From IMG/VR virus record IMGVR_UViG_3300031841_004047: 64,000 bases of DNA. The stretch is one strand, 5' to 3'. This stretch comes from a virus. The position numbers and the translations under genes are program-made. Shown one piece after another: positions 301-60,874 of this stretch; within the stretch, counting starts at the first letter, position 1; every line of letters begins with the position of its first letter. Under the pieces are notes generated by a model. It was not told the DNA's origin, searched no databases, and was given only the letters and a program-made list of their open reading frames with translations.

Positions 301-376
301 GCTCCTGTAGCTTAACGGTTAAAGCCCCCCGCTCATAACGGGTCGACTGTAGGTTCGAATCCTACTGGGAGCACCA
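301..376 (+). tRNA. tRNA with CAU anticodon; probably tRNA-Ile2 (lysidine) rather than Met
   Basis: Cloverleaf: acceptor GCTCCTG/TGGGAGC, loop CT-CAT-AA, GTTCGAAT T-loop, encoded CCA. C4-G69 and C5-G68 are TilS determinants; initiator features absent. Confidence 0.9.
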
Positions 377-378
377 AT

Positions 379-455
379 GGTCACGTAGCTCAACTGGATA
401 GAGCAGCTGACTTCTAATCAGCAGGTTGAGGGTTCGAGTCCTTCCGTGATCACCA
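379..455 (+). tRNA. trnR: tRNA-Arg(UCU)
   Basis: Acceptor GGTCACG/CGTGATC, anticodon arm GCTGA-CTTCTAA-TCAGC, CCA end. Confidence 0.97.
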
Positions 456-458
456 TAA

Positions 459-535
459 GCCGGTATAGCTCAGTAGGTTAGAGCAAGTGACTGTTAATCA
501 CTGGGTCGGCGGTTCGAGCCCGTCTCTGGGAGCCA
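459..535 (+). tRNA. trnN: tRNA-Asn(GUU) with mismatched, chimeric acceptor stem (possible pseudogene or assembly chimera)
   Basis: Anticodon arm AGTGA-CTGTTAA-TCACT and 3' end GGGAGCCA are Asn-type. The 5' 26 nt are identical to tRNA-His at 805 and pair poorly (GCCGGTA vs TCTGGGA). Confidence 0.8.
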
Positions 536-562
536 AAATGAAGAGGGTAAAGTAGAGGGCAA

Positions 563-701
563 GATTAGACGGTGTCGGCGCTATGCCGGCGTCGTGAGGT
601 GCTAGGAATAACCTGGCGGGGTCTAATCAAAAGAGTAAGTTAGGGTCGCGCCCTAGCCCAGACCGTAAGGCGTAACGGTGACAAGCAGGGAGAGACCTGC
701 A
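563..701 (+). ncRNA. candidate structured ncRNA within tRNA cluster
   Basis: GC-rich and ORF-free. Stems 563-569/622-628, 570-579/585-594, 601-606/612-617, 640-645/651-656, 662-666/675-679, 685-689/696-700. Confidence 0.6.
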
Positions 702-710
702 CAAAGTTTT

Positions 711-800
711 GGAGAGGTGGCAGAGTCTGGCTTAATGCACCGGTCTTGAAAACCGACGTACCGCAAGGTACCCAGGGTTCGAATCCCTGTCTCTCCGCCA
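711..800 (+). tRNA. trnS: tRNA-Ser(UGA)
   Basis: GGAGAGG acceptor, loop CT-TGA-AA, long variable arm GTACCGCAAGGTAC, CCA end. Confidence 0.97.
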
Positions 801-804
801 TAAC

Positions 805-881
805 GCCGGTATAGCTCAGTAGGTTAGAGCGCTTGATTGTGGATCAAGAAGTCCTAAGTTCAATTCTTGGTGCCGGTACCA
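805..881 (+). tRNA. trnH: tRNA-His(GUG), alphaproteobacterial type (no G-1, A73)
   Basis: Acceptor GCCGGTA/TGCCGGT, arm CTTGA-TTGTGGA-TCAAG, discriminator A878, CCA; base -1 is C804. Confidence 0.95.
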
Positions 882-893
882 AAAAAAGGTTAA

Positions 894-970
894 CAGGGTA
901 TAGCTCAGCATGGTAGAGTGCTGCACTTGGAATGCAGAGGTCGTTGGTTCGAGTCCAGCTACCCTGACCA
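894..970 (+). tRNA. trnP: tRNA-Pro(UGG)
   Basis: Acceptor CAGGGTA/TACCCTG, arm CTGCA-CTTGGAA-TGCAG, CCA end. Confidence 0.97.
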
Positions 971-1194: not shown

Positions 1195-1941
1195 ATGGAA
1201 TCAATTAGTCAGATGACTTTTGAGCAAAGGTCACTATTGTTTGCTAAATTGGCCGAGATTGCTTATATGTCACCAAAGGAAGTAAAAAAACCAGCAAGTA
1301 AAATGAATTTCACCGAGGTTGAGTTTTATGATAATGGAGGTGCGCAAGCATACAGGTTTATGAATAAACATGATATCGTGATAGCATGTAGAGGTACAGA
1401 ACCAACCCAGTGGAATGACATTAAAGCAGACTTAAAGGCTATTCCTGTTATGGCAGAAACCGTAAGTAGAGTCCATAAAGGATTTAAAGCTGAAGTCGAT
1501 GATCTTTGGCCTATGGTAAAAGAAGATTTAGAAAGAGTAGGAAAATCGAGAAAAGCTTGGTTCTGCGGTCATTCACTTGGAGCCGCAATGACAACTATCA
1601 TGGCTAGTAGATGTAACTACGATGTGGATATGCCAGATATTGAAGAGGTCTATACTTTCGGGTCACCTCGTGTTGGATTTAAAAGATACTGTGGAAGCTT
1701 AAACGTAGTTCATCACAGATTTGTAAATAATAATGATATAGTTACTCGTGTTCCGTTATGGATTATGGGTTATAGACATCATGGTACTATGCATTATTTT
1801 AACAGACACGGTGATCTAGCAAAAATGACTTGGGGTGATAGACTAAGAGGAATGTGGGATGGATTGAAGAAAGGCTCCATCGATGTTGTAGCAGATCATC
1901 CAATGTCTGCTTATATGCCATGCGTACAAAAAATGCAGTAA
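1195..1941 (+). CDS. class 3 lipase (alpha/beta hydrolase)
   Basis: Nucleophile elbow GHSLG, IACRGT, YTFGSPRVG, RFVNNNDIVTRVP, C-terminal His (DHPM). Confidence 0.9.
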   Translation: MESISQMTFEQRSLLFAKLAEIAYMSPKEVKKPASKMNFTEVEFYDNGGAQAYRFMNKHDIVIACRGTEPTQWNDIKADLKAIPVMAETVSRVHKGFKAEVDDLWPMVKEDLERVGKSRKAWFCGHSLGAAMTTIMASRCNYDVDMPDIEEVYTFGSPRVGFKRYCGSLNVVHHRFVNNNDIVTRVPLWIMGYRHHGTMHYFNRHGDLAKMTWGDRLRGMWDGLKKGSIDVVADHPMSAYMPCVQKMQ

Positions 1942-2977: not shown

Positions 2978-4129
2978 ATGCTATTAGATAATGAATTAAA
3001 GTTAGATTATAGTGATGTTTTAATTAGACCTAAAAGAAGTACACTTGGCTCACGTAAAGAAGTAGATCTTAATAGAAAATTTACTTATGTCAACTTAGGT
3101 GGCGCTAAAGATAGTGAATATGATTACGACGGTGTTCCTATCATGGCAGCTAATATGGATGGTGTTGGTACCATGGAAATGGCTGATGAATTAAGTGAGC
3201 GTTATAATATGTTTACTTGTCTCGTTAAGACATATAGCGCTGAAGAACTCATAGACTTTTTTAATCCAAGAGTTGACTTACGAACAGAATTTGTTGCCAT
3301 GAGTATTGGCATTACAAAAGCTGACAAAGAAAAGCTAGCTCAAGTTTATAACAAAACTCAAAGAAATCTGAAATATGTTTGCGTTGATGTGGCAAACGGA
3401 TACAGCGAACGTTTTGTACAATTTATTAAGTTTCTTAGAGAACATTATCCTTTCCTTGTAATTATTGCAGGTAATGTAGTTACTGCTGATCAAACACAGG
3501 AGTTAATATTAAATGGCGCTGATATTGTTAAAGTTGGTATTGGTCCTGGTAGCGTATGCACTACTAGGATACAGACTGGAGTGGGATATCCGCAACTTAG
3601 TGCGGTTATCGAATGTGCAGATGCAGCACATGGATTGGGTGGCCATATCATTGCTGATGGTGGTTGTACTTGTCCTGGTGATGTTGCTAAAGCCTTCGCT
3701 GCTGGCTCTGACTTTGTAATGCTAGGTGGTATGCTTGCCGGACACGATGAAGGTGGTGGTGAAATAATCACTAAGTACTATCAAAGCAATGAACTAAGAC
3801 CAGAGCGCGAAGCAATGTATGGAGAAATTCCTGAAAAACGCTGGTTTGAAGAAGTCATTGAAGAAAAGAAGTTCGTTCAATTTTATGGTATGAGCAGTAA
3901 AGCCGCTAATGACAAACATTTTGGTGGGCTAAAAGAATACCGTTCATCTGAAGGAAGAGATGTGTTGGTACCATATAGAGGAAAAGTTATAAATACTTTA
4001 AGAGATATCTTGGGTGGCATTCGTTCAACATGTACTTATGTCGGTGCAAGAAAATTAAAACAACTGAGTAAGTGTACTACCTTTGTGAGGTGTACTAACC
4101 AATATAATGGAGTGTATGCAAATAACTAG
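2978..4129 (+). CDS. guaC: GMP reductase
   Basis: [78 protein letters not shown]. Confidence 0.95.
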
Positions 4130-5217: not shown

Positions 5218-5463
5218 ATGTTCACGTATAAAGGAAAAACATATGATACATCACACAATTCTATCGTCACTCGCCATGGAGGCCCTTTTGACCGCGGATC
5301 GGCTGATTCGTACTATAGTCGTGGGTTTACTCCTCACTTTTTTTGTGGTGCAACTGGCACGTCTACTCGTATAGAAGAAGTTGACATGTCACCTATGGAG
5401 CTGGAACAATACGCAGCCGGCTACGCTTATAATGAAGAAATGGGTTACAAGAAGGAGTGGTAA
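5218..5463 (+). CDS. hypothetical phage protein (RHGGPFDRGSADSYY motif)
   Basis: ORF track, AGGAAAGG RBS. Confidence 0.8.
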   Translation: MFTYKGKTYDTSHNSIVTRHGGPFDRGSADSYYSRGFTPHFFCGATGTSTRIEEVDMSPMELEQYAAGYAYNEEMGYKKEW

Positions 5464-5465
5464 GA

Positions 5466-5735
5466 ATGACTGTTGCAACTACGTACGATGAACGTATAGC
5501 TCTAATCAAACGGATAGCTGAGCGTCGTAAGAAAATGGAAAAAATCAAGCTTGGGTCTAGGAAAGCTAGAAAAGTAATGTTGGAGGCTCGTAAAAATCGT
5601 AAGGATCCGTTGGAATACCTTAACGTTAAAGAAGGTGAAAATCCAAACCATTGGACTGATGGGTCTAAATACGCCAAAGAATACTATGGTGAAACGTTGT
5701 TTGAAACAACAAGGTATGATAACGAATGGGATTGA
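5466..5735 (+). CDS. hypothetical protein
   Basis: ORF track; start moved to ATG 5466 with GGAG RBS. Confidence 0.75.
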   Translation: MTVATTYDERIALIKRIAERRKKMEKIKLGSRKARKVMLEARKNRKDPLEYLNVKEGENPNHWTDGSKYAKEYYGETLFETTRYDNEWD

Positions 5736-5743
5736 GTCTTATG

Positions 5744-5933
5744 ACTCTTTTCCTCATACGTCCGTGCGGAGGGCAGGCCACCTGAAAACACGATCTCTGG
5801 TGAATATATTCGCCCGTGAAATATCGGTGACGTGAAACCCAGAGATGTTAGTTTCAATCAAACTAGAGCGGCAACGTCAATAAGACCGTGCGGGGAGATT
5901 GGAGATACTAGCTGGGCGTATGAGGAAAGGAGT
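5744..5933 (+). ncRNA. candidate large structured RNA / cis-regulatory element
   Basis: 20-bp closing stem 5744-5763/5914-5933 (2 G-U pairs); inner stems ATCTCTGG/CCAGAGAT, GGTGAA/TTCGCC, TAGTTT/AAACTA, CAGG/CCTG. Confidence 0.7.
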
Positions 5934-5939
5934 TTAGAA

Positions 5940-6140
5940 ATGACTTGGACAGTTACAACACAATTCAGCACTATGTGCCAAGCAGTCGAGAGTGAATTGC
6001 CTGAGTGGTGTGCTGTTGTCTGCGAGACTGAAAAAGAAGCCAGGGAATGGTTTCAAGTTCATGTCAGGGGAAGGCATAGCAAAGCTAGAGTTGTTACCTT
6101 GACAAAAGAAAAAGAAGTAGTGGAGACTAGGTTTTTATGA
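5940..6140 (+). CDS. hypothetical protein (66 aa)
   Basis: Start moved to ATG 5940 behind AGGAG RBS; the longer track ORF runs through the structured RNA. Confidence 0.65.
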   Translation: MTWTVTTQFSTMCQAVESELPEWCAVVCETEKEAREWFQVHVRGRHSKARVVTLTKEKEVVETRFL

Positions 6141-6145
6141 GGATT

Positions 6146-6219
6146 GCGGATGAAGTGTTACGGTAGCACGTCGGTCTCCAAAACCGAAAGACAGGGTTCA
6201 ATTCCCTGCATCTGCGCCA
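6146..6219 (+). tRNA. trnW: tRNA-Trp(CCA)
   Basis: Acceptor GCGGATG/CATCTGC, arm TCGGT-CTCCAAA-ACCGA, G73, CCA end. Confidence 0.95.
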
Positions 6220-6265
6220 ATTTTCGCGAAACGGTAGCGGGGACCGTCTGCATGCCCGACAAAAC

Positions 6266-6643
6266 ATGAGGAAAAGAATGATGGACAAATATTTGGACAA
6301 ATATTATACAGACGAAGAATTAGACGAAATGTTAGAGCACTATGAGAGCCTGATGAATAATAGACCGGAACGGGTTTATTGCCACGCAGAGTATTATGGG
6401 CAACGCGAATTTGAATGGACGAAGGGTACTTGGCATATCTACTCTAATCTTTATAATTCTAACACTGTTGAATACGTCCGCGCTGACCTCTTTGAAGAAT
6501 TGGAAGAGAAGCTGGAGAAGGTGAAAGAGAGCTTAAAAGAAATACTGTCGACCTCGGATAGACAATTAGAACATATGTCTGCTCAAGGTGTTCTAAAAGT
6601 ATATGTAAAAGACATAATCAGAGAACTAACTGAGGAAGAATGA
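6266..6643 (+). CDS. hypothetical protein (EYVRADL motif, C-terminal coiled coil)
   Basis: ORF track; true start may be 6278. Confidence 0.75.
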   Translation: MRKRMMDKYLDKYYTDEELDEMLEHYESLMNNRPERVYCHAEYYGQREFEWTKGTWHIYSNLYNSNTVEYVRADLFEELEEKLEKVKESLKEILSTSDRQLEHMSAQGVLKVYVKDIIRELTEEE

Positions 6644-6978
6644 TGAGTAAGTTTACAAAAGAACAGTTGATATTTTTACAGGAAGTCATCGAATTAGGTA
6701 AGGACGAAGAGGGGCTTCCATATATTTCAAATGTCAGAGGTAATGTCGGCGGTGATGTCTTTGGCAAGATCGGCGGTAGTGTCTTTGGCAAGATCGGCGG
6801 TAGTGTCTGGGATAATATCGAAGGTAATGTCGGCGGTGATATCGAAGGTAATGTCTGGGGTGATGTCTGCGGTTATGTCAGCGGTACTGTCCATGCTCGA
6901 GTGTTAGGGGCACCGTCTTTGGCAAGATCGGGCCGGAACTCTAAGGTGAAACAGGAGAAGAATGATGCGGGACTATGA
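6640..6978 (+). CDS. tetrapeptide-repeat (V.G.) beta-helix-like protein; 3' end probably frameshifted
   Basis: GNVGGDVFGKIGGSV... repeats; a further repeat copy at 6915 lies in another frame. Confidence 0.7.
   Translation: MMSKFTKEQLIFLQEVIELGKDEEGLPYISNVRGNVGGDVFGKIGGSVFGKIGGSVWDNIEGNVGGDIEGNVWGDVCGYVSGTVHARVLGAPSLARSGRNSKVKQEKNDAGL
6733..6900 (+). repeat. 12-bp tandem coding repeats (about 14 units) with an exact 24-bp duplication
   Basis: GTCTTTGGCAAGATCGGCGGTAGT twice; units such as GTCGGCGGTGAT and ATCGAAGGTAAT. Confidence 0.85.
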
Positions 6979-49462: not shown

Positions 49463-52400
49463 ATGGCGATAAGCGATAATCAAAAGATAGACTATCTATT
49501 TAAGAAACTCGGTTTCGGTGTTTCTAAAACTGATACGAATTCTATTAAGAATGCCACGAATGAGGATATAGCAAGTCCACTTCTTTTAAGAGGTGACAAT
49601 CTTTGGACGGATGCAGATTTAATTCCAAATATAATTCCTTCGTCTAACAGTAACGTAATTAAAGTATACAGTGATGCTGTAGGAACTGAAGCAACACTAG
49701 AAACTACTGAAGATACTACGGCTACACCCAATAGAACATGGAAAACCGGAATCTCAAACTGGATTCCACCACAGTTTGGATCAACTTATCAATTAAAAGT
49801 TTACATCGACTCTGCTGGTGCTTCTGCTCCTCAGTCAACCGGAACTCAGATATTTGCCAGCGGATCCGGAAACAATGACGAGTGGTTTTTTGATTATCAA
49901 TCGGGTGTCTTACATTTTATTGGTGATAATCTACCCGGTGGTATTGCTGGAAATGTAATATATGTTTCTGGTGCTGCTTACATCGGTAAGACTGGAAATA
50001 ACTTTACTACCTTAAATGTTGATTCAGCAAACATAGCAAGAGCGACCATCCTTGATGCTCAGTTTCCATTAGGAATAACTGTTAAGGATCTTACTGTTAC
50101 TGACTCTGCATACTTAAAATTTGCTGATATTGACTCCGCATTTATCGATAGACTTGTTGCAGACTCAGCAACCATAACAAATATAACTATTGACTCAGCA
50201 GACATCAATATCTTAAATATTACCGTTGGTGGTAGAATTCAGGGTCAAGAAAATCTTATTATTGATCCAAGAGCAATCGGTGATAACACGGGTAGAGTAA
50301 TCATCAAGGGTGACCTCATGGTCGAGGGCCTTGAAACAATTGTTAATTCTACTACCGTAACTATGAATGATAAAAATCTCGTACTTGCGGATTCTGCACC
50401 AGATTTAGCATTTACGGATGGAGCTGGTATCATTATAGCACCAGGAATTTCTGGAGCAGCTATTAGATATGATCAAAATAAAGATAGATGGATATTAAAT
50501 AGAAGTCTTGAAGGTAATAACTACGGAAGCCCTGGAGCAGGAATTTACTTTGATTCCGGTAATTTCTACAAGTTAACAACTAATCATATAGAAATTGGTG
50601 ACGTAATTACCGCGAGAGATATCAGGATTACTAGTCCAAATGTTATTCAAGGTGGTATTCTTACTATAGGTGATGACGATTCTATTTCCACTATACAAGA
50701 TATAAAAGTACAACAGTATAAGTCAAGCCTTCATCCTGATCTAAAAGGAAACGGTTTCTTAGCAATGAGGGAACTCATTGAGGATTCTGGTTACTATAAA
50801 CTAACAGTTGATCAAGATTCGGATATGGTGAAGATAGTCGGTGGATTTAAAGCCGGAATATATTCAAATCTTCCAGTAGGACAGTATGTACAATCCTATC
50901 CATACCAGAAAGATAGTAACAAGTTAGATTTTTATGGTATTGAATATAACGCAGATTCAAATTTAATTAGATTAAATGCTCAAAATACTATCATTAGAAC
51001 TTCGTTCAGTGCAGATAGTATGAGAGGAAAAGATTCAGCCTTTGCATTTCAAATTTTAACAGCCAATGATAGTACTCTCTTCAGTGTTGCAAGAGATGGT
51101 ACAATTAACTTTGGTGGTGCTCTTGAACAGAACGGTGCTGATTTTATTGGCGGTGGTGCATTTACAACCGTCACAGAAGCAAATGATTCAGGACAACCCG
51201 GTGACATATATTTTGTAAGAGACGAAGAAAAATATGGAGGCGCCGCTAACTCCATTAATGGTTATGGATTTGTTGGTATTCAAACCAGAAATCCGAGGTA
51301 TGAGCTTGAAGTTGCAGGTACCTTTCAGGTCGCTGACAGCATTGATCTAGTAAACTACGCTCTTAACAGAGCACTTTTCCCATATGCATCTCAAGCTGCT
51401 ACTGGGAAAAAACACGATGATGATACGAAAGGTCGCATGACCTTTATTCCACAAGCGGCGATGTTTAGAGCCGGTGAATTTGGTGATAGTCATTATAACG
51501 TGAATGTTATGGGTCAATTCTCTACTGCACTCGGTAAGAAAACAATTGCTGGTGCTGTAGGTAATAACCAAGCTGGTGAAGGACAATTTGCTGCTGGTTG
51601 GTTAAGTACTGCTGCTGGTAACTACAGCGTAGCAATTGGTAGAGAAAATACTACGGTTTCTGATCGTGGAACTGAGAACACTGACAATCTATTCTTAGGT
51701 AGTCGTAACATTGCTAACTATGCAGCAGGTCCTGGTTCTTATGATAGAATGACATCTATTGGTCATGAGAATAAAATAAAAGCTGCTGATGGTCTTATTC
51801 TTGGTACTGATAATAATATGCAAGGCTTTAGAAGTGTTATCGTAGGTGCCGATAACGTTTTAGGTGACAGTTCAAAAGATGGCCAATCAACTAGTCCTTT
51901 TGATGGCGGCTCAGGCACAGTTATTATTGGTAATGATAACGTTGTTCCAAATAGAAACACTTATGTTTTTGGTAGACAAAACACTCTTGGTGGAACTGAT
52001 GCTACAACAGGTGAGGCATTAACTAGATTTGGTAATGCCGGAATAAGTAATTATGTGTTTGGTGAGCTTAATACTGTTGGTAATAACGCTGACCAAGTTT
52101 CAATTTTTGGTAACCAAAACATAGTAAATGCCGATGAAGGTAAAGCTTTTGGTAGTCAGATTACAATTGATTCTGATATGTCTCAATCAATTGGATTTAA
52201 TTTAAGTTCACAGCCGGTTTCAGTTAAAGCCCCAAGAATTATGTCTATCCAAGGGGGTAATGTTATCATCGGTGAAGACAGCGACAAGTTTAGTGACTAT
52301 GATGGAAACTTATACGTAAAAGGTGATATTATACTAGGTGGTCAGTTGTTGACAGAGGGCTTGCCCGGTGTTCTTTCAAGCGGTACACCTTTCGTTGATG

Positions 52401-55400
52401 ATGGACTTTCTGTTACTAACACTGTTGGTCGTCCAGTAGGTATCAACACTTCTGCTCCAAGACATGCTTTAACGGTATCAGTTTCAAACTATCCTGCACC
52501 TCAAGGAATAATAGTAGAGGGATCAATTCAACCATTTGATCCAAGAGATACTTTGGGTGACTCGGATATATTTGATTCCACTAATACTAGCTGGAACAGT
52601 AGAAACAGCCTATTTAGTTTCATACCTCAGCTTGGAACTTTAATTGCTGGAGATTTTCCAGCCGGAAAGGCCGGGTTCGAAAAATATCTTAGCAATGGAG
52701 CTCTTGGTGTAAGAGCAATTTCACTTGGTCAAAATAATAGAGCGAATGCTTTAAACAGTGTTGCCATCGGTAACAATAATATTATCTATCGTGGACCAGA
52801 TTCTGAGAATGCTTCTTCAATACTAAGTAAAAATACTTACTTTATAGGACATAGCAACGAAGCAGACAGTGCTATGAGATCTCCCGCTGGAGACAACTAT
52901 GTTCTTGGTAATACAAACAGGTTTATGGGTAACACCAATAACTCTTATGTTATAGGTCAAAACGCTCGCTTAGAAGATGTATCCGGTATAGTTGCTATCA
53001 CGGCAGGATTTGAAAGACTCAATAATGGCGGAACGGTTCTTGGAAAAAGTGCACTACAAATAAACATTGATTCCAACCCCATGGACAACACTAAAGTTGG
53101 TATCGGTAAAGACAGCGCGCAATATGCTTTGGATGTTAGAGGTAGCTTAAAGATTGACAGTGGAGGTCAAATCTTCGTAGGATCCAAGACCATCAAGGAA
53201 TTCTTAGGATTCGGTGAACCAACACTAAGTTCAGGATCAGATGCTATAATTGGATCTGAAACAGACCCGATTGCTCCTGAAGGTAGAGTTTCTAACATAG
53301 TTGCTATTACTTTTGATCAGACTGAGCAGTCACCTAAAATTGCTGGGACTAGAACAAATGTTGCTAGAATTACTACATTCTTCCCTTACGCAGACTCAGA
53401 CAGAAGCATACTTCTTACCGATAACAACGCCACTAATATACTAGCTAAGTTTAATGGAGTTGATGTTACTCAAGATTCTTCTGTTGCAATCAGATTAAAA
53501 GGATTTGATTTAGTTGAAGATGTAGTTGGAAACCATATAACATTAAGTGATGATAGTTTATCCGATTTAGGTAGAGTAGGTAAACAGGTCTTATTGTTTG
53601 TTGAGCCTATAGATCAATTTAACTTCATGGTCAGGATGGACTCTCATAAAGGACCTGGATTACAGGCTGGAACCGGAGACAGTAATTTTAATAATGTAGC
53701 TGGTGTAGGCGGAGGTTTCCAAGACGGCGATTCTGGTGTACTGGCTAAAGTATTCTATATTCCCGCATCAGCACCAAGAATTATAGATCCGTCTTTAACT
53801 ACTGCTGGTGATCTTTTCGTTAAGGGTGAAAACGCAATTGGACCAACAATTGATCTCAGCGCAGATTCAAGAGGTCTTACTTTTGCTGCAGGAAACTTGA
53901 AGTTTACAACACCGGTTGTTGTACCAGCTGGAGAAAGATACCCTTCTGAAGGTGGTGATATTAGACTTGGTGGAAGAACCACTAACAAACGACAAACATT
54001 CTTGTTTGATAGTACAGGGTTACAATTAACATCTGGAATCGTTGCAGACAGCGCAACATTTACTAACGGACTACAACTCGTAAATGATAACTTCCTTATA
54101 GATGGTCTATCATTTGATTCTTATGCGGTCAGAACAGACGGAAAAATCATCGGGGCGGTAACTGAATTCCTCGATACAGACTATGTACAGGCTAGAGTCT
54201 TTGCTTCTTCTTTCTTCAGGCATCATCAAGATGCTCTATACTACTATCCTGAAAGTGCGCCGTTTAATAGACCAGTTCTTTTAGGCATGTCACCGGATAA
54301 CAGCATCTTTACTGGACTGTTAGGAAGATTGGATAGATCAAACTATACCATCAATATGATGGCAAGAGAAGATAATGGTGCCATCGATGTCAAAACAAGC
54401 GCTTCATTTGGTGGTTCGACAGCTGATGCTATCGGTAATAAGATCGGTACATTCTCTCCATCTCCGATAGTAGGTTTGGGTCTTCCTCTTCCTGATCACG
54501 TTGATGTTAACAATAATATCGTTCCGACCACTGGAAGTCTTCCGAGCCCCATAAATGTTGATGGTAAACCTTTCCCAACTCCGGCTTTCTTAAGACAAGA
54601 CGGATACATCGATAAAAAATATATTAATGATAATATTGCTCTTACTACGGCTCAGTTACAACAAGTAGTAGATGATGCATTTATGAAGGCCATAATAGAC
54701 AGCGCATATATTCTTTCAGCTGCTAATGATAGTTCGGAATGGCAAAGAAGAGAAAACACTCTGTTTTTTGGAACATTCCCCAGTGTTTCACATGTTAAGG
54801 TTGGTATTGGAACTGCAGATCCACATCGTAAGTTCCATGTCAACGGTGACCTACTGATTGAAGACTCCGCTCTATTCGAAGGACCATTAACTGTTCAAGG
54901 ACGTAAGATCACAGTCGATGAGATATATCGTTATCAGTTTGATGGAACTGCCGCCGGTTCAACATTAGTAAAAACAGATAGTGATGATCTACTTAAAATT
55001 GGAAGAAATGCTGGAGGAGACTTCTTTTCTGTCGCCGATGCTAAAAATCAAGCAATTCAAGATCAGAGTGACGGAATAGCCGTCACAACTTCTCTCGATG
55101 ATGGTGTTAAGACGGTATCTCGGTTCGCTCGCTTATATAGAATTGATCAGTTTGGTGATTCTCATGATCTAACCTTTAGGTTAGGTGGTACTGGCGCTTC
55201 TATTGGTAGTACTACTAATTTTGGTTCATATGATGCTTACTACACCGATGATGGTGGTGTAAACAATATACTCTTTATTAAAGCTTCATCACTTGATTCT
55301 TCAGACTATAATGTTATTATCAATGATTATGATCTTCAGGGTGGAATTCTTAACTTTACTCATAACAATACTGATATAAACGGTGGTAAGTCTTTAGATT

Positions 55401-58400
55401 ATAATACGACTTATTCTGAAGTACGCGTTTTAGAATCAGATGGAACGACCGTAAGAAAAGATTTCACGGTACTCAGTGGAGTTACTCTAGATAGTGCTAG
55501 AGGATTTAGTTTCCCGGCCTTTGATAGTTTACACTTAAATGATATAATTGAAATTTATGACAGAAGTTCTAAGATTAGTAGTTCTCTCACAGTTGTTGGG
55601 GATACTATACTCGGTGAAGTTCATCCTTCCGGAGCAACCGGAAGCAGGCTGACTTATATTAAAGATGCGTTGTTGGTAGACGATAGCACAACTTTAAATA
55701 ATAATTTGACTATTAGTCCAAACGGGATTGTTCATCTGGATGATGCAACTCTTAATATCACTGGCACACAAACGTCTACCATCTCAGCTAATCTTCATGT
55801 TGCTTCACCTGCATCAACGTTCATTATTGATCCAAGTGTTGACTTTACTTTCCCTAATGCTGCAGGAAACCTGAGATCAAACGTTGATGACCATATTACC
55901 AGAGTTGTTGATTCAAACTACATTGGATCAAGACTGCAGACTGTATGGAACTTCTTTGATGATTCCGTAGGTAATCAGTACATCTACTATAAGAGAGGCT
56001 CTACTAACGGTCAAGTTGTAATAGGTGATCAAGATGCTCCAGTTCTAGGTGATAGCGATACGAAGTTCTTCGTACAAAAAGGTAACGTTGTATTTAATAA
56101 CGAACAAACTTGGGATGGCCTATTCGGTACTGAAACCGAAGACATAGTTCCGGATTTTGGTACTTCTGCTAGACATGGAAATACATTCTCTGGCGCTAGG
56201 ATGATGTGGATACCACAAAGAGGAGCATTTAGAGCTGGTGCTATAGATGGAGCAGCCGTTCAATGGAGTGATGAAGAAGTTGGTAGAGCCTCTGTAGGTA
56301 TAGGTTATAATACTTTATCAACTGACTTCAGTGTTGCTTTAGGTTACAATGCTCAAGCTGGTAACATGGGTCCTGGTTCACCAAGAAGATCTAGAAGAAC
56401 TAATAATGCTGTTTCTATCGGTCATACCATTGATGGACAGAGTGAAAACGGTGTAGCTATCGGTAGATCGATTGGTCATAGTTATCAAAGATCAAACAAC
56501 GTATCAATCGGTAAAGATATAGTTAATACGTATTCAGATGGAACTGTTGCTATAGGTGATGATATTACCTCTAGCAGAGGCGTTGCTATCGGTAAAGATA
56601 TAAGCACGAGTACTATTGGATCGTTTAATACCGCTATAGGGTATAAGTCTACTGCTCAAAGAGATGGTGCAGCAATAGGTTATAATGTTACTGCTAGCTA
56701 CGGTGGTGTAGCTATCGGTAAAACAGCCAGTGCTTCTGCTCAAGGAACTAACATCGCTATTGGTAAAAACGTCGGTGGGTCCCGAGGCGGGGTGTATATA
56801 GGTGAATACGCATCTGGTTCATATGGCGGTGTAGCAATTGGTAAATCTGTACAAGCTCATGGTGGAAATGCAGTTGCCATCGGTAACAGCCAGACAGCTG
56901 GTGATAGATTAGTGCAGAACGTGGCTGTTGGCTACAACAACAATGTTTCTGGTGGTGTGGTTGTTGGTCTAAGTAACGTAACTTCAGCAAGACAAAATCA
57001 TGTTATACTCGGTATTTCAAACAAGGGATACGCATCTACTTATGGTGCCGGCGCTTCACCAAATATCATTATTGGAAGTACCAACACCGCAAACGGAAGA
57101 GGTGGAGCTACTATAATTGGTGTGAGCAACACCACGGCTGGTCCTAACTCTTTCATATTTGGTTCAACTAACCGTAACGTAGGTAATGGAACTGGTTACG
57201 GTAGATCGATAGTATTAGGTTATAATAACCAAAACTTAGATCCTCGATACGGAAATATTATTGCTATAGGTGAAGGAAACAGCAATAATACTCCTCCTCA
57301 ATTATACTATTCCGGTGAAGGCACCTATATCGGTAGATATAATAGTAGCAACGATGCTTCACACATCTTTGGTAATAGCAACACTGGCAATAAGAGAGCA
57401 TACATATATGGATCCGGTAACATAAATGCTAATTCTTCGATAGCCGGTAACCGCTACAATGGTTCTTATGCTTACATGTACGGTAGAGCAAATACCGTTA
57501 ATAACGGAGGATATACATATGGTGCTTCGAATGAAGCTCTAAACAACGGATATGCTTTCGGTGTAGGAACTAAGGGTAGCTACGGCGGTCTATCATTTGG
57601 TATGCTGGACAGCGCAACTAATGGCGGTATTTCTTTTGGTCACAGTAACTGGGTGGATGGCTTAGGTCAAAGCGAACCTACTCTAGCATTCGGGTATAAC
57701 AATACGGCTACTCTTTCGGGTATAGCTTATGGTGAAAATAATACTGTTTCAAATGGAGGTATGGCTCTAGGTGGAAATAATACGGCTACAGCCTTTAGAG
57801 CTCTTGCACTTGGTAGTGGAATTAACGTAACTGGTCAAAACTCAGTAGGTATTGGTTTATCAAACGTTAATTCAGGAACAGTCTCCACATCCAACACTCT
57901 TTCCATAATGGGTGGACAAGTAGGAGTAGGAGTAACATCGGTACCACCAGCTTATAAGATGGAAATCGGAGGAACCGGCCTTAACGTCTCGGTCACCGGT
58001 GATTATTATAGAAGAGGTGTAAGACTCTATGATTATATTCAAAATGATGTAACACCCAGATCTTACGTAAGATTCCATGCTGATTCAAATTACATCCACA
58101 GCGCCGTTGATACTCCTTATCTAAGAACCGCTCTTCCACCTCAATTCTTCTTTGCGAGTAATTTAAATACTAACAACGTTGAGTTCACTGGATCTGGTTC
58201 AGTCGGTATCGGTAGAGCAAACAGTAACGCATCGAAATATAAGCTGGATGTTCTTGGAAACATAAACTATACTGGTGCTCTTTATCTAAACGGTGATAAA
58301 ATTATACCATCAACCGATTCAATAGGTGATGTATATATTAATCATTATCAGCAATACTATCAAATCGGCCCAGACAGTGCTGAAGAATATTTTGATTCTG

Positions 58401-60874
58401 CGTATGTTGCACAACGTCAACAAATGTTTGGTATGTCTGTTGGACAAACAGTACAACAAGTAATCGATCAAACTTATATTACTGGTACTATTGATAGAAG
58501 TCTATTCCTTGACTCTGCTGAAGCACTTCAACTCATTAATGAAAATACTGGACTACTTGTCGGTGAAACAATAGCATTTAAGCATGATCCAAGTAATAGT
58601 AACACAGTATCTCTTGTACCTGATCTAACAAAAATGCCACTAGGCGTCAAGGTTGCTATCGGTAAAACAGCCAGTGTTCTTGGACCTACGTTGGATATTC
58701 TTGGTAATCAGGTAATCGATGGTGACCTTGATGTTACTGGTGAACTTACTGTTAACGGTGAAGCAATAGTTTCTAAAACACTATTTAATCAGGCTGCAGG
58801 CGGCACTGTTTACGTAGAAAACGAAAACATTATGATTAGCAAGGGTGCTCAGCCATCTACACTAATCCCATCTCATGTTCTTGAAGTTGTTGGTGACATA
58901 AGTGCTGATCAACTAAAGATACAAGGTAATGATATACTTGATATATTCGATTCTGCATATGTTATCGAAAGACAGAAGCTCATAGATTCTGAACTTACCG
59001 GAAATATGATAGATTCTGCCTACATAAGATTCAGAGCTGATTCAAATTATATCTTAAGTGTAGCTGACAGCGCATACATTACCCATATCTTAGGTAGTGG
59101 AGTACCGGGTTCAATAGTTCCAGGCGTTGATGTCAACGGTGATCCAGTATATGATCTAGGAAGTCCAACAAATAGATGGCGGGACTTATATCTAAGCGGA
59201 ACTTCAATTAATATTGGTGGAGCAGTATTCAGTACTCTTGAAGATAATACTGTTTCAATCACGGATAGCGCCGGTAATCCTTCTAAGATTAGAGGAATTG
59301 ATTCCGATGCTGCTATAGCATTCATTGATTCTGACTATGTTCAAACTCGAGCAAACGCTACCTACTTAAAAACAATTATTGATTCAAGCTATGTGCAGCA
59401 ACTAGTAGATTCAAGCTATGTGACTGCTATTACTAATGAAACGTATATTAGATCTCACGCTGACAGTGCTTGGATCACTTCTATAGCTGATTCCGCACAT
59501 ATACGAGGTATAGCTGACAGTGCTTGGATCACTTCTATAGCTGATTCCGCATATGTTCTTAATATAGCCGATAGCCAATATATTTCAAGTATTGCTGATT
59601 CTGCTTATATCTCGTCTGTAACTGGTATCGGATCAAGGGCAGTAGATTTTGGCGGGTTCCCGATCATATTCAGTAATGCTTATGCTACTGAAGGCTCTAT
59701 GCCAAACGCCGGTAGCAGACCAGGTAACTTTACGCTCAATACTACTACTAATAAACCATTTGTTTCATTTAACGGTTCATATAATAGAATCGCTCTTAAA
59801 ACTGACCTTGATTCCGATATAAGTGTTCTAAGATCTAAAATAGATTCTGATGTAAATGCTATAATTGGTGGTGCGCCTGAAGCTCTTGATACACTGAAAG
59901 AACTATCAGAAGCCATAAATAATGATTCAAACTTCTATGCCACTATTACGGCTCTTGCAACTTCAGGTGTAGATTCAGAAGCAACGATAGCTCTCATTGA
60001 CTCGGCGTATGTACTTGCTAGAAGTCCACAGTTTGATTATATTACTCTAATTGACTCAGCATATGTTCAAGCGAGACAACTTCCGGGAACAGATTCTGAA
60101 GCTGTTATAGCCATCATAAATTCTAATCCGACTCTTGATTCGGCTGCTACAATTTCTCTTATTGATTCAGCCTATATTAATGCAAGAGTTTCAACCGTTG
60201 ATTCTGCTCAAGTTCTATCAATAGTTGATTCATCTTATATCCTATCAATCACTGGTTCAGGACTTGGTGGATCTGGATCCGGAGGCGGCACCTCTCTGGT
60301 AGACTTTAACTATATAGCCACAGCCAATCAGTCTTTGTTTACTGGATCTGATGCTGACGGATCTTTACTATCGTATGATCCAAGTACAGCAACTATCGTA
60401 AGTGCGAATGGTATAACACTTACCAGAGGAGTTGATTATACACATGTTGATAGTTCATCGATAAGCTTTACTGTTGCAAGAGATTTAGGTGATGAAATCA
60501 CTATCTTCACGACTAAGAAAGCTTCTGATGCTGGATCTAGTGGATCTAGTGGAACAACTAGTACGATAATATCTACTTCATCTACTACAATCTTTGATAG
60601 AACAATACACAGTAATAACTTTAAGTCAATTGAATACACCGTTCATATGGAAGACAGCAGCTTAGGTCATACACAAATAACTAAGCTACTTGCTACATAC
60701 AATAAATCACAAGTGTTTAGTACTCAGTACGGCACAGTAAGTACATTTGCCGGTGACAGTGATCTCGGTGTAATTGATGTGGTGGAGACTGGTGGACAGA
60801 TTCAACTAACATTGACGAAAGCGAATGGAACAGGAACAGTTAGAGTAGTATCGAATAAAACAGTAATAAATTAG
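49463..60874 (+). CDS. giant 3803-aa virion fibre/adhesin with YadA-head-like repeats and DS-rich segments
   Basis: Uninterrupted ORF; G..A.AIG repeats; APEALDTLKEL fibre motif; about 87 DS dipeptides by hand count. Confidence 0.85.
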   Translation: MAISDNQKIDYLFKKLGFGVSKTDTNSIKNATNEDIASPLLLRGDNLWTDADLIPNIIPSSNSNVIKVYSDAVGTEATLETTEDTTATPNRTWKTGISNWIPPQFGSTYQLKVYIDSAGASAPQSTGTQIFASGSGNNDEWFFDYQSGVLHFIGDNLPGGIAGNVIYVSGAAYIGKTGNNFTTLNVDSANIARATILDAQFPLGITVKDLTVTDSAYLKFADIDSAFIDRLVADSATITNITIDSADINILNITVGGRIQGQENLIIDPRAIGDNTGRVIIKGDLMVEGLETIVNSTTVTMNDKNLVLADSAPDLAFTDGAGIIIAPGISGAAIRYDQNKDRWILNRSLEGNNYGSPGAGIYFDSGNFYKLTTNHIEIGDVITARDIRITSPNVIQGGILTIGDDDSISTIQDIKVQQYKSSLHPDLKGNGFLAMRELIEDSGYYKLTVDQDSDMVKIVGGFKAGIYSNLPVGQYVQSYPYQKDSNKLDFYGIEYNADSNLIRLNAQNTIIRTSFSADSMRGKDSAFAFQILTANDSTLFSVARDGTINFGGALEQNGADFIGGGAFTTVTEANDSGQPGDIYFVRDEEKYGGAANSINGYGFVGIQTRNPRYELEVAGTFQVADSIDLVNYALNRALFPYASQAATGKKHDDDTKGRMTFIPQAAMFRAGEFGDSHYNVNVMGQFSTALGKKTIAGAVGNNQAGEGQFAAGWLSTAAGNYSVAIGRENTTVSDRGTENTDNLFLGSRNIANYAAGPGSYDRMTSIGHENKIKAADGLILGTDNNMQGFRSVIVGADNVLGDSSKDGQSTSPFDGGSGTVIIGNDNVVPNRNTYVFGRQNTLGGTDATTGEALTRFGNAGISNYVFGELNTVGNNADQVSIFGNQNIVNADEGKAFGSQITIDSDMSQSIGFNLSSQPVSVKAPRIMSIQGGNVIIGEDSDKFSDYDGNLYVKGDIILGGQLLTEGLPGVLSSGTPFVDDGLSVTNTVGRPVGINTSAPRHALTVSVSNYPAPQGIIVEGSIQPFDPRDTLGDSDIFDSTNTSWNSRNSLFSFIPQLGTLIAGDFPAGKAGFEKYLSNGALGVRAISLGQNNRANALNSVAIGNNNIIYRGPDSENASSILSKNTYFIGHSNEADSAMRSPAGDNYVLGNTNRFMGNTNNSYVIGQNARLEDVSGIVAITAGFERLNNGGTVLGKSALQINIDSNPMDNTKVGIGKDSAQYALDVRGSLKIDSGGQIFVGSKTIKEFLGFGEPTLSSGSDAIIGSETDPIAPEGRVSNIVAITFDQTEQSPKIAGTRTNVARITTFFPYADSDRSILLTDNNATNILAKFNGVDVTQDSSVAIRLKGFDLVEDVVGNHITLSDDSLSDLGRVGKQVLLFVEPIDQFNFMVRMDSHKGPGLQAGTGDSNFNNVAGVGGGFQDGDSGVLAKVFYIPASAPRIIDPSLTTAGDLFVKGENAIGPTIDLSADSRGLTFAAGNLKFTTPVVVPAGERYPSEGGDIRLGGRTTNKRQTFLFDSTGLQLTSGIVADSATFTNGLQLVNDNFLIDGLSFDSYAVRTDGKIIGAVTEFLDTDYVQARVFASSFFRHHQDALYYYPESAPFNRPVLLGMSPDNSIFTGLLGRLDRSNYTINMMAREDNGAIDVKTSASFGGSTADAIGNKIGTFSPSPIVGLGLPLPDHVDVNNNIVPTTGSLPSPINVDGKPFPTPAFLRQDGYIDKKYINDNIALTTAQLQQVVDDAFMKAIIDSAYILSAANDSSEWQRRENTLFFGTFPSVSHVKVGIGTADPHRKFHVNGDLLIEDSALFEGPLTVQGRKITVDEIYRYQFDGTAAGSTLVKTDSDDLLKIGRNAGGDFFSVADAKNQAIQDQSDGIAVTTSLDDGVKTVSRFARLYRIDQFGDSHDLTFRLGGTGASIGSTTNFGSYDAYYTDDGGVNNILFIKASSLDSSDYNVIINDYDLQGGILNFTHNNTDINGGKSLDYNTTYSEVRVLESDGTTVRKDFTVLSGVTLDSARGFSFPAFDSLHLNDIIEIYDRSSKISSSLTVVGDTILGEVHPSGATGSRLTYIKDALLVDDSTTLNNNLTISPNGIVHLDDATLNITGTQTSTISANLHVASPASTFIIDPSVDFTFPNAAGNLRSNVDDHITRVVDSNYIGSRLQTVWNFFDDSVGNQYIYYKRGSTNGQVVIGDQDAPVLGDSDTKFFVQKGNVVFNNEQTWDGLFGTETEDIVPDFGTSARHGNTFSGARMMWIPQRGAFRAGAIDGAAVQWSDEEVGRASVGIGYNTLSTDFSVALGYNAQAGNMGPGSPRRSRRTNNAVSIGHTIDGQSENGVAIGRSIGHSYQRSNNVSIGKDIVNTYSDGTVAIGDDITSSRGVAIGKDISTSTIGSFNTAIGYKSTAQRDGAAIGYNVTASYGGVAIGKTASASAQGTNIAIGKNVGGSRGGVYIGEYASGSYGGVAIGKSVQAHGGNAVAIGNSQTAGDRLVQNVAVGYNNNVSGGVVVGLSNVTSARQNHVILGISNKGYASTYGAGASPNIIIGSTNTANGRGGATIIGVSNTTAGPNSFIFGSTNRNVGNGTGYGRSIVLGYNNQNLDPRYGNIIAIGEGNSNNTPPQLYYSGEGTYIGRYNSSNDASHIFGNSNTGNKRAYIYGSGNINANSSIAGNRYNGSYAYMYGRANTVNNGGYTYGASNEALNNGYAFGVGTKGSYGGLSFGMLDSATNGGISFGHSNWVDGLGQSEPTLAFGYNNTATLSGIAYGENNTVSNGGMALGGNNTATAFRALALGSGINVTGQNSVGIGLSNVNSGTVSTSNTLSIMGGQVGVGVTSVPPAYKMEIGGTGLNVSVTGDYYRRGVRLYDYIQNDVTPRSYVRFHADSNYIHSAVDTPYLRTALPPQFFFASNLNTNNVEFTGSGSVGIGRANSNASKYKLDVLGNINYTGALYLNGDKIIPSTDSIGDVYINHYQQYYQIGPDSAEEYFDSAYVAQRQQMFGMSVGQTVQQVIDQTYITGTIDRSLFLDSAEALQLINENTGLLVGETIAFKHDPSNSNTVSLVPDLTKMPLGVKVAIGKTASVLGPTLDILGNQVIDGDLDVTGELTVNGEAIVSKTLFNQAAGGTVYVENENIMISKGAQPSTLIPSHVLEVVGDISADQLKIQGNDILDIFDSAYVIERQKLIDSELTGNMIDSAYIRFRADSNYILSVADSAYITHILGSGVPGSIVPGVDVNGDPVYDLGSPTNRWRDLYLSGTSINIGGAVFSTLEDNTVSITDSAGNPSKIRGIDSDAAIAFIDSDYVQTRANATYLKTIIDSSYVQQLVDSSYVTAITNETYIRSHADSAWITSIADSAHIRGIADSAWITSIADSAYVLNIADSQYISSIADSAYISSVTGIGSRAVDFGGFPIIFSNAYATEGSMPNAGSRPGNFTLNTTTNKPFVSFNGSYNRIALKTDLDSDISVLRSKIDSDVNAIIGGAPEALDTLKELSEAINNDSNFYATITALATSGVDSEATIALIDSAYVLARSPQFDYITLIDSAYVQARQLPGTDSEAVIAIINSNPTLDSAATISLIDSAYINARVSTVDSAQVLSIVDSSYILSITGSGLGGSGSGGGTSLVDFNYIATANQSLFTGSDADGSLLSYDPSTATIVSANGITLTRGVDYTHVDSSSISFTVARDLGDEITIFTTKKASDAGSSGSSGTTSTIISTSSTTIFDRTIHSNNFKSIEYTVHMEDSSLGHTQITKLLATYNKSQVFSTQYGTVSTFAGDSDLGVIDVVETGGQIQLTLTKANGTGTVRVVSNKTVIN
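59459..59551 (+). repeat. 39-bp exact repeat, period 54 bp, within a 9-aa IADSA.. tandem array
   Basis: GCTGACAGTGCTTGGATCACTTCTATAGCTGATTCCGCA at 59459 and 59513. Confidence 0.9.

What the first reader, a model, noticed from the sequence alone, without database searches (positions are those of the whole stretch)
5744..5933. 190-nt multi-branched RNA closed by a 20-bp stem that sequesters the next gene's RBS
Seen: ACTCTTTTCCTCATACGTCC (5744-5763) pairs fully with GGGCGTATGAGGAAAGGAGT (5914-5933), covering the AGGAG of the ORF at 5940. A competing hairpin GAGTC/GACTC (5734-5747) overlaps the 5' arm. Inner stems include ATCTCTGG/CCAGAGAT, which has alternative partners GGAGAT at 5894 and 5901. 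It lies upstream of tRNA-Trp. Inference: a stable phage ncRNA or translational switch. Marine phage motifs found near tRNAs (for example manA) are the obvious comparators, but I cannot assign it to any family.
Basis: partly seen in the sequence, partly recalled or inferred. Interest (0 to 1): 0.72.

Follow-up and report, generated by a model that had tools for sequence, protein, structure and literature searches.

The report
Uncatalogued self-pairing RNA of marine phages
The flagged 190 bases are a real gene for a folded non-coding RNA from an undescribed family carried by uncultured marine T4-like phages; hiding the next gene's ribosome site is a side feature of about half the family, and the RNA's main job is still unknown.

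Summary
Arms 5744-5763 and 5914-5933 form a 20-bp helix (18 Watson-Crick pairs, 2 G-U) that buries AGGAG 5928-5932. The fold is far stronger than shuffled sequence (z -4.4).

The element belongs to a family of 138-225 nt RNAs on at least 94 IMG/VR viral contigs. The family is absent from Rfam 15, 50,697 cultured phage genomes, 185,579 prokaryote genomes and the paper library. This scan has met it before on other DNA.

Covariation supports:
- a length-conserved 21-22-bp closing stem P1
- hairpin P2, whose loop carries a changing self-complementary word (GGCC here), which suggests that two copies pair
- an optional P3
- a long-range P4/P5 arm with an invariant 12-nt loop

Only 28 of 61 distinct members put a Shine-Dalgarno in P1. 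Others are followed directly by tRNAs or terminators. So it is an RNA gene, not a dedicated riboswitch.

New here:
- Members with the Shine-Dalgarno nearly always carry a covarying upstream hairpin (5734-5747 here) that competes for the strand pairing with it.
- Short tandem paralogs keep only P1 and P2.
- A second RNA family uses the same ACU...AGU stem.
- The cassette moves between flanks.

Function is inferred, not shown.

The parts
5466..5735 (+). Upstream ORF (89 aa, P0004 family). Its TGA stop at 5733-5735 overlaps the 5' strand of the competitor hairpin.
   Evidence: 32 viral loci encode relatives at 40-54% identity
5734..5747 (+). Competitor hairpin GAGUC-UUAU-GACUC. Its 5' strand mimics the SD, and its 3' strand is the start of the P1 5' arm (the anti-SD strand).
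   Evidence: -5.6 kcal/mol. It is conserved with compensatory changes in 23/28 SD-bearing members against 8/33 others (Fisher p 8e-6).
5744..5763 (+). P1 5' arm
   Evidence: helix 1: 21 pairs, 11 with changes on both sides, 99.2% paired
5764..5791 (+). P2 hairpin: GUG/CAC outer pairs, AGG/CCU inner pairs, and an 8-nt loop at 5773-5780 with the self-complementary word GGCC at 5776-5779.
   Evidence: helices 2 and 3; 13 of 14 loop types carry a self-complementary word
5793..5846 (+). P3, the optional domain, here in its long ~56-nt form. It is closed by AUCUCUGG/CCAGAGAU.
   Evidence: size classes about 0-6, 15-23, 55-58 and 79 nt; it has its own covariation
5848..5911 (+). P4/P5 arm: UUAGU/ACUAG, UUCAAUC/GAUUGGA and CU/GG, then P5 at 5868-5872/5885-5889 closing the invariant 12-nt loop AACGUCAAUAAG at 5873-5884.
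   Evidence: helices 4-7. The rival local hairpin has no change on both sides and 10 broken cells.
5914..5933 (+). P1 3' arm. It contains the Shine-Dalgarno AGGAG at 5928-5932.
   Evidence: SD bases are predicted to be at least 99.6% paired at equilibrium.
5940..6140 (+). Downstream ORF (66 aa, P0001), whose ribosome binding site lies inside P1.
   Evidence: 14 viral loci at 88-94% identity; some lack the RNA
6146..6219 (+). tRNA-Trp (CCA)

Best explanation
The stretch 5741-5936 encodes one copy of an uncatalogued structured ncRNA carried by uncultured marine T4-like myoviruses.

Architecture (shown by covariation):
- A length-conserved 21-22-bp closing helix P1, bounded by invariant ACU...AGU.
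- Hairpin P2, whose loop holds a self-complementary word.
- An optional P3.
- A long-range P4/P5 arm ending in an invariant 12-nt loop.

Likely mechanism (inferred):
- The RNA is made inside polycistronic or tRNA-island transcripts.
- It is released or stabilised through P1, which is long enough to be an RNase III-type substrate. RNase P cutting of an abutting tRNA would define the 3' end.
- It then acts in trans as a homodimer joined by a P2 kissing loop, probably as a scaffold or decoy for an unknown factor.

In this window's lineage the outer 3' strand of P1 doubles as the SD of the next ORF. At equilibrium the SD is locked. A conserved upstream SD-mimic hairpin that competes for the anti-SD strand, or cleavage within P1, would be what lets ORF 5940 be translated. 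This gating is a secondary, lineage-specific use of the RNA.
For: Family:
- A 23-nt core pattern hits 94 IMG/VR contigs.
- Model R1 scores the window's copy at 144.8 bits on the + strand only and about 100 other loci at 130-170 bits.

Structure:
- 98.9% of cells pair and 18 pairs change on both sides, against shuffled and slid controls.
- Invariant G-U pairs, and minus-strand scores that are about 120-140 bits lower, fix the strand.

RNA gene rather than leader:
- Eight members abut a tRNA 3-6 nt downstream, and others abut terminators.
- Head-to-tail arrays of RNA, RNA, then tRNA occur.

Dimer idea:
- Seven different self-complementary words sit at the same loop position.
- In 3 of 4 tandem pairs the two copies carry different words.

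P1 as a shared chassis:
- Short paralogs keep only P1 and P2.
- An unrelated RNA family has the same ACU...AGU stem of about 20 bp.

SD gating:
- SD bases are predicted at most 0.4% unpaired, and forcing the hairpin costs +6.2 kcal/mol.
- The hairpin is linked with SD presence.

Expression hint:
- Metatranscriptome contigs cover 5772-5935 at depth 37 without flanks.
Against: - No experiment bears on this RNA. Ends, processing, dimerisation and any partner are all inferred.
- The RNA-library evidence comes from assembled contigs. These cannot show ends or strand, and they may contain DNA.
- Loop types are phylogenetically related, so the count of self-complementary words overstates independence. 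One main-class loop type and one short paralog lack a perfect word.
- The P5 helix and its loop are invariant only because the search pattern fixed them.
- The hairpin state is 6 kcal/mol worse than full P1, so any gating would have to be kinetic or driven by processing.
Confidence: 0.6

Rival explanations
1. The element is mainly a cis-acting translational switch (riboswitch, thermosensor or coupling device) that controls ORF 5940 by toggling between P1 and the upstream hairpin.
For: - The SD is buried.
- A three-part layout of SD mimic, anti-SD and SD is conserved with covariation in 23/28 SD-bearing members.
- The stop codon of the upstream ORF overlaps the hairpin.
- The 68-aa MRTVHY-type gene follows the RNA in about 24 of 63 loci.
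Against: - 33 of 61 members have no SD in P1, and several are followed by tRNAs or terminators.
- In some loci the MRTVHY-type gene has its own SD outside the stem.
- In 2 of 4 contexts sampled from the protein side, that gene has no RNA upstream.
- Downstream genes vary.
- A 20-bp P1 is far more stable than any known switch helix. The conserved core is kept where there is nothing to regulate.
Confidence: 0.15
2. It is a mobile DNA cassette (MITE-like, or a recombination module) whose 20-bp inverted repeats act at the DNA level.
For: - It has terminal inverted repeats.
- The cassette 5738-5934 is 99.5% identical in L005 although the flanks differ and the neighbouring gene is only 91% identical.
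- Close relatives L008, L013 and L014 keep the ORF but lack the RNA.
Against: - There is a single copy per window and per locus, apart from divergent tandem paralogs.
- No target-site duplication is seen.
- Invariant G-U pairs and strongly strand-asymmetric model scores show selection on one RNA strand.
- The internal helices and the loop word covary.
- It is absent from 185,579 prokaryote genomes.
Confidence: 0.08
3. It is only an RNase III processing or mRNA-stabilising stem between cistrons, like the T7 R sites, and the interior has no function of its own.
For: P1 has the length of an RNase III substrate, it lies between ORFs, and the same ACU...AGU stem flanks a second, unrelated core.
Against: The interior is the most conserved part. 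About 70 nt are nearly invariant across phages whose flanking proteins are 40-50% identical. It also has its own covarying helices.
Confidence: 0.07

Closest known systems
GOLLD (RF01998), ROOL (RF03087) and OLE 'ornate' RNAs
   Same: They are phage-borne (GOLLD, ROOL), often sit near tRNA islands, have unknown function, and self-associate through loop-loop contacts that are visible as covariation (bioRxiv 10.1101/2024.12.08.627333).
   Different: They are 3-6 times larger and form cages of many chains, or an intricate dimer. No Rfam model matches here. This RNA has one simple self-complementary loop, so at most a dimer is predicted. Nothing here has been tested.
Phage T4 stable RNAs rnaC and rnaD (species 1 and 2)
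   Same: They are small stable RNAs of unknown function in the tRNA region of a T4-type phage, packed head to tail with tRNAs.
   Different: Model R1 finds nothing on them at E<=10. rnaC ends in a tRNA-like T arm, and neither has a 20-bp closing helix or a self-complementary loop word.
RNase III-processed helices that flank stable RNAs or hide ribosome sites (rRNA precursor stems, T7 R sites, E. coli adhE leader). This comparison rests on my own knowledge.
   Same: A helix of at least 20 bp, built from sequences on both sides of a stable RNA. Cutting it would release the RNA and free an occluded SD.
   Different: Cleavage was not tested. The invariant ACU...AGU ends have no known counterpart. 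The helix here has no internal loop.
Three-part SD / anti-SD / anti-anti-SD translational switches. This comparison rests on my own knowledge.
   Same: The SD mimic (5734-5738), anti-SD (5743-5750) and SD (5927-5933) are laid out as in such switches, and they covary.
   Different: The two partners lie 190 nt apart across a conserved RNA. There is no sensor domain tied to one gene class. Half of the family lacks the layout.
manA motif (RF01745) and other marine-phage Rfam motifs
   Same: They occur in marine phages, sometimes near tRNAs.
   Different: No match, even at E<=10, on 5600-6300.

Membership tests
   Window 5741-5936, + strand, 144.8 bits, model positions 1-154. The window sequence was in the seed. 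Relatives outside the seed score 130-170 bits, and L142, which was found from the protein side, scores 158.7 bits.
   GGCC at 5776-5779. 13 of 14 loop types carry such a word.
   5873-5884. Its invariance across the set is partly forced by the search pattern.
Any Rfam 15 family (manA, GOLLD, ROOL, 6S, Y RNA-like, phage pRNA, riboswitches, ribozymes, group I introns) | Covariance-model match | tested here: not met
   Only tRNAs reach the gathering score in the 64-kb window. On 5600-6300 nothing meaningful appears at E<=10.
T4 rnaC / rnaD | Similarity of sequence and structure | tested here: not met
   No R1 hit on T4 70908-71171 with filters off, and the folds differ.
Translational riboswitch or leader | Always upstream of an ORF whose SD it controls, with functionally related downstream genes | tested here: not met
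   33 of 61 members lack an SD in P1. Some are followed by tRNAs or terminators, and downstream genes are heterogeneous.
RNase III substrate | About two turns of uninterrupted dsRNA | tested here: met
   20 bp here, and 21-22 bp with at most one mismatch across the family.
RNase III substrate | Staggered cleavage in vivo or in vitro | not testable with these tools
   Only assembled contigs of RNA libraries were available.
MITE-like mobile element | Many dispersed copies and target-site duplications | tested here: not met
   One copy in the window and no duplicated flanks.

The most novel reading that the evidence does not exclude
Marine T4-like phages carry a modular set of small RNAs built on one shared chassis. 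The chassis is a 21-22-bp ACU...AGU stem that serves as an excision and stability handle. It bears a hairpin whose ever-changing self-complementary loop makes each RNA pair only with itself, and exchangeable third domains act as payloads. This would be a minimal, RNA-only, orthogonally dimerising system. It may titrate or scaffold a host or phage factor, and in some lineages its processing is coupled to translation of the next gene.
Probability: 0.3. Interest if true: 0.8.

Novelty: new variant of a known kind. Interest (0 to 1): 0.62.

Why it matters
Orphan structured RNAs in phage tRNA islands (T4 rnaC/rnaD, GOLLD, ROOL) have been an open question for decades.

This family is small (138-225 nt), abundant in marine viromes and simple enough to study fully in vitro. 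One loop predicts dimerisation, and natural variants predict that different members pair only with themselves.

The shared ACU...AGU stem on two unrelated cores, and the covarying SD-mimic hairpin, give concrete hypotheses about RNA excision and processing-coupled translation in uncultured phages. All of these can be tested with synthetic RNA and E. coli reporters, without a cultured host.

Tried and rejected
- **N4-like phage.** I first assumed this because of the 3803-aa ORF. PHROG and Pfam hits to baseplate wedge gp6, hub gp5 and gp32 show a T4-like myovirus.
- **Cultured phages.** blastn against cultured phages gave no hit for the whole element. The conserved half gave only chance 18-25-nt matches.
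- **Prokaryote genomes.** The core pattern has 0 hits in 185,579 genomes.
- **Window genome.** No whole genome is held for this window.
- **Local hairpin CUAGUUU/AAACUAG in place of long-range P4.** It has no change on both sides and 10 broken cells (against 54). It can still form in most members, so an alternative conformer is not excluded.
- **GGAGAU repeats as alternative partners of P3.** They are the 3' strand of P4 and are kept in members without P3.
- **The 68-aa MRTVHY-type neighbour as an RNA-binding partner.** It has no Pfam or PHROG family. The AlphaFold model has pLDDT 79 and Foldseek against the PDB gave nothing at E<=0.001. The gene is not in the window, and 2 of 4 contexts have no RNA.
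- **L146 upstream gap.** It is unstructured (z +0.6) and promoter-like.
- **Metatranscriptome run X19.** It does not cover the element. Assembled contigs cannot give ends.
- **Literature.** Searches by topic and by loop sequence found nothing relevant.

Full report
**1. Observation**

They pair over all 20 positions, with 18 Watson-Crick pairs and G-U at 5748/5929 and 5761/5916. AGGAG at 5928-5932 lies in the 3' arm, 7 nt before the ATG at 5940.

The other details are also correct:
- the small hairpin at 5734-5747
- the inner stem 5793-5800 with 5839-5846
- the two GGAGAT words at 5894 and 5901
- tRNA-Trp at 6146-6219

The stretch 5730-5945 folds to -76.4 kcal/mol. Shuffled sequence gives -55.8 +/- 4.7 (z -4.4).

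**2. Context**

The window comes from a T4-like myovirus, not from the N4-like phage I first assumed. It encodes a gp6-like baseplate wedge, a gp5-like hub-lysozyme and gp32. GC content is about 39%.

No whole genome is held for the window. DNA nearly identical to 5300-6700 occurs in seawater, marine, estuary and biofilm metagenomes: 16 runs from 6 studies hold at least half of the sampled words.

**3. It is one member of a family**

No Rfam 15 model matches.

Relatives of the flanking ORFs led to viral contigs that carry the element. A 23-nt core pattern then found 94 IMG/VR contigs, some of 150-275 kb. The same pattern has no hit in 185,579 prokaryote genomes. Cultured phages give no real hit either.

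Distinct members are 138-225 nt long.

Covariance model R1 finds:
- one copy in the window (144.8 bits, + strand only)
- about 100 loci at 130-170 bits
- reverse-strand scores only up to about 32 bits

Invariant G-U pairs also fix the transcribed strand.

**4. Structure**

I tested the structure on a MAFFT alignment of 43 distinct members that was not fitted to any structure. In it, 98.9% of cells pair and 18 of 46 pairs change on both sides. Shuffled and slid controls stay far below.

- **P1.** It is 21-22 bp long in every member. The ends are invariant ACU...AGU, and the middle covaries freely (11 pairs).
- **P2.** It covaries. Its loop always holds a self-complementary word at the same place: GGCC, CCGG, GUAC, GAUC, UGAUCA, CCGGCCGG or CCGUACGG. 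This is true of 13 of 14 loop types. Such a word cannot pair within the loop, so the simplest reading is a kissing-loop homodimer.
- **P3.** It is absent, short or long. The window has the long form of about 56 nt, which has its own compensatory change.
- **P4.** The 3' domain is a long-range helix, with 4 pairs that change on both sides. The local hairpin that the single-sequence fold prefers has no such change and 10 broken cells.
- **P5.** Its invariance, and that of its 12-nt loop, is partly forced by how I fished for members.

**5. RNA gene or leader?**

Of 61 distinct members with flanks, 28 have GGAG in the last bases of P1 and 33 do not. Eight abut a tRNA 3-6 nt downstream. Others abut a terminator. 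18 of 63 have tRNAs within 2.5 kb.

Arrays of RNA, RNA, then tRNA with spacers of 0-3 nt occur in L059 and L144. The genes that follow differ between members.

So the family is a free-standing RNA gene. SD occlusion is a secondary use.

**6. What is new for the switch idea**

In SD-bearing members, the first bases of the P1 5' arm (the anti-SD strand) can also pair with an SD-like word just upstream. 23 of 28 members have such a hairpin of at least 5 bp, against 8 of 33 members without an SD (Fisher p 8e-6; the members are not phylogenetically independent). The hairpin keeps pairing through compensatory changes.

In the window:
- the hairpin (-5.6 kcal/mol) forms in the nascent transcript
- the finished RNA prefers full P1 by 6.2 kcal/mol
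- SD bases are predicted at most 0.4% unpaired

Translation of ORF 5940 therefore needs a kinetic window, help from the ribosome terminating at 5733-5735, or cleavage of P1. All three are inference.

**7. Chassis and mobility**

Short tandem paralogs keep P1 and P2 but replace the P4/P5 arm. They are in L059, L063, L120 and L144. In 3 of 4 such pairs the two copies carry different loop words, as expected if each pairs only with itself.

A second, unrelated core carries the same ACU...AGU stem of about 20 bp and also abuts a tRNA. It is in L040, L089, L094, L123, L042 and L044. This points to P1 as a general excision or stability handle. Its length fits an RNase III substrate.

The cassette 5738-5934 is 99.5% identical in L005 within different flanks. 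It is missing from near relatives that keep ORF 5940.

**8. Expression**

Contigs from two salt-marsh metatranscriptome runs cover 5772-5935 without the flanking ORFs. One is a 184-nt contig at depth 37. Contigs from other family members are also present. This is a weak hint only.

**9. Comparison and novelty**

T4 rnaC and rnaD share position and mystery but not sequence or fold. GOLLD and ROOL share the phage and tRNA-island setting and conserved intermolecular loops, but they are far larger and do not match.

I found no paper on this family.

Earlier agents of this scan reached the same core reading on other genomes. I re-derived it independently before reading those notes (notebook). What I add here:
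- the SD-mimic hairpin
- the short tandem paralogs
- the second RNA family with the same stem
- the cassette exchange between flanks
- the frequent 68-aa neighbour gene

**10. Verdict**

The element is a real, new kind of small phage RNA. The translational switch is real only as a lineage-specific overlay. Function is unknown, and a dimeric trans-acting RNA excised through P1 is the best current guess.

Noticed in passing
L040:3657-3775 (+); L089:10341-10460 (-); also L094, L123, L042, L044: A second uncatalogued RNA of about 120 nt. It has the same ACU...AGU closing stem of about 20 bp but an unrelated conserved core. In L040 a tRNA begins 5 nt after it, and in L089 it lies next to the main-family copy. 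It has no Rfam match.
   Followed up: partly
L059:418-532 (-); L063:5900-5995 (-); L120:461-554 (+); L144:2217-2408 (+): Short or divergent tandem paralogs of the RNA that keep only P1 and P2. In 3 of 4 pairs the loop's self-complementary word differs from that of the neighbouring full copy.
   Followed up: partly
L060:3083-3289 (+) and about 24 of 63 loci; not in the window: A highly conserved 68-aa protein (starting MRTVHYVGM, with a GGPAYYH motif) often lies directly after the RNA. It has 154 metagenomic relatives, no Pfam or PHROG family, and an alpha/beta model with no PDB match.
   Followed up: yes
L040:850-1412 (+): A related phage contig carries a permuted, alphaproteobacterial-type tmRNA (RF04321 at 111.9 bits, RF01849 at 102.8 bits). 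This hints at an alphaproteobacterial host for that relative.
   Followed up: no
window 5762-5771 and 5886-5895: The word CCGUGCGG(A/G)G occurs twice in the RNA as a direct repeat, once at the P1/P2 junction and once on the 3' side of P5. Both copies are conserved across the family. This could mean an internal duplication or two sites for one factor. It remains unexplained.
   Followed up: no
window 5788: In the window, P2 has a C-A mismatch (5767 with 5788). RNA-library contigs of relatives read G at 5788, which restores the pair.
   Followed up: partly
window 301-970: A cluster of six tRNA genes (Met, Arg, Asn, Ser, His, Pro). The tRNA-Asn at 468-535 is short (68 nt) and matches the Rfam tRNA model only over positions 7-64.
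   Followed up: no
window 1195-1941 and 2978-4129: Auxiliary-looking genes lie upstream of the RNA region: a class 3 lipase domain (PF01764) and an IMP dehydrogenase/GMP reductase domain (PF00478, E 4e-67).
   Followed up: no
window 49463-60874: A 3803-aa ORF with only an N-terminal PHROG match of unknown function and a short tail-fibre-like piece near residue 3455-3500. It is probably a giant structural or fibre protein.
   Followed up: no
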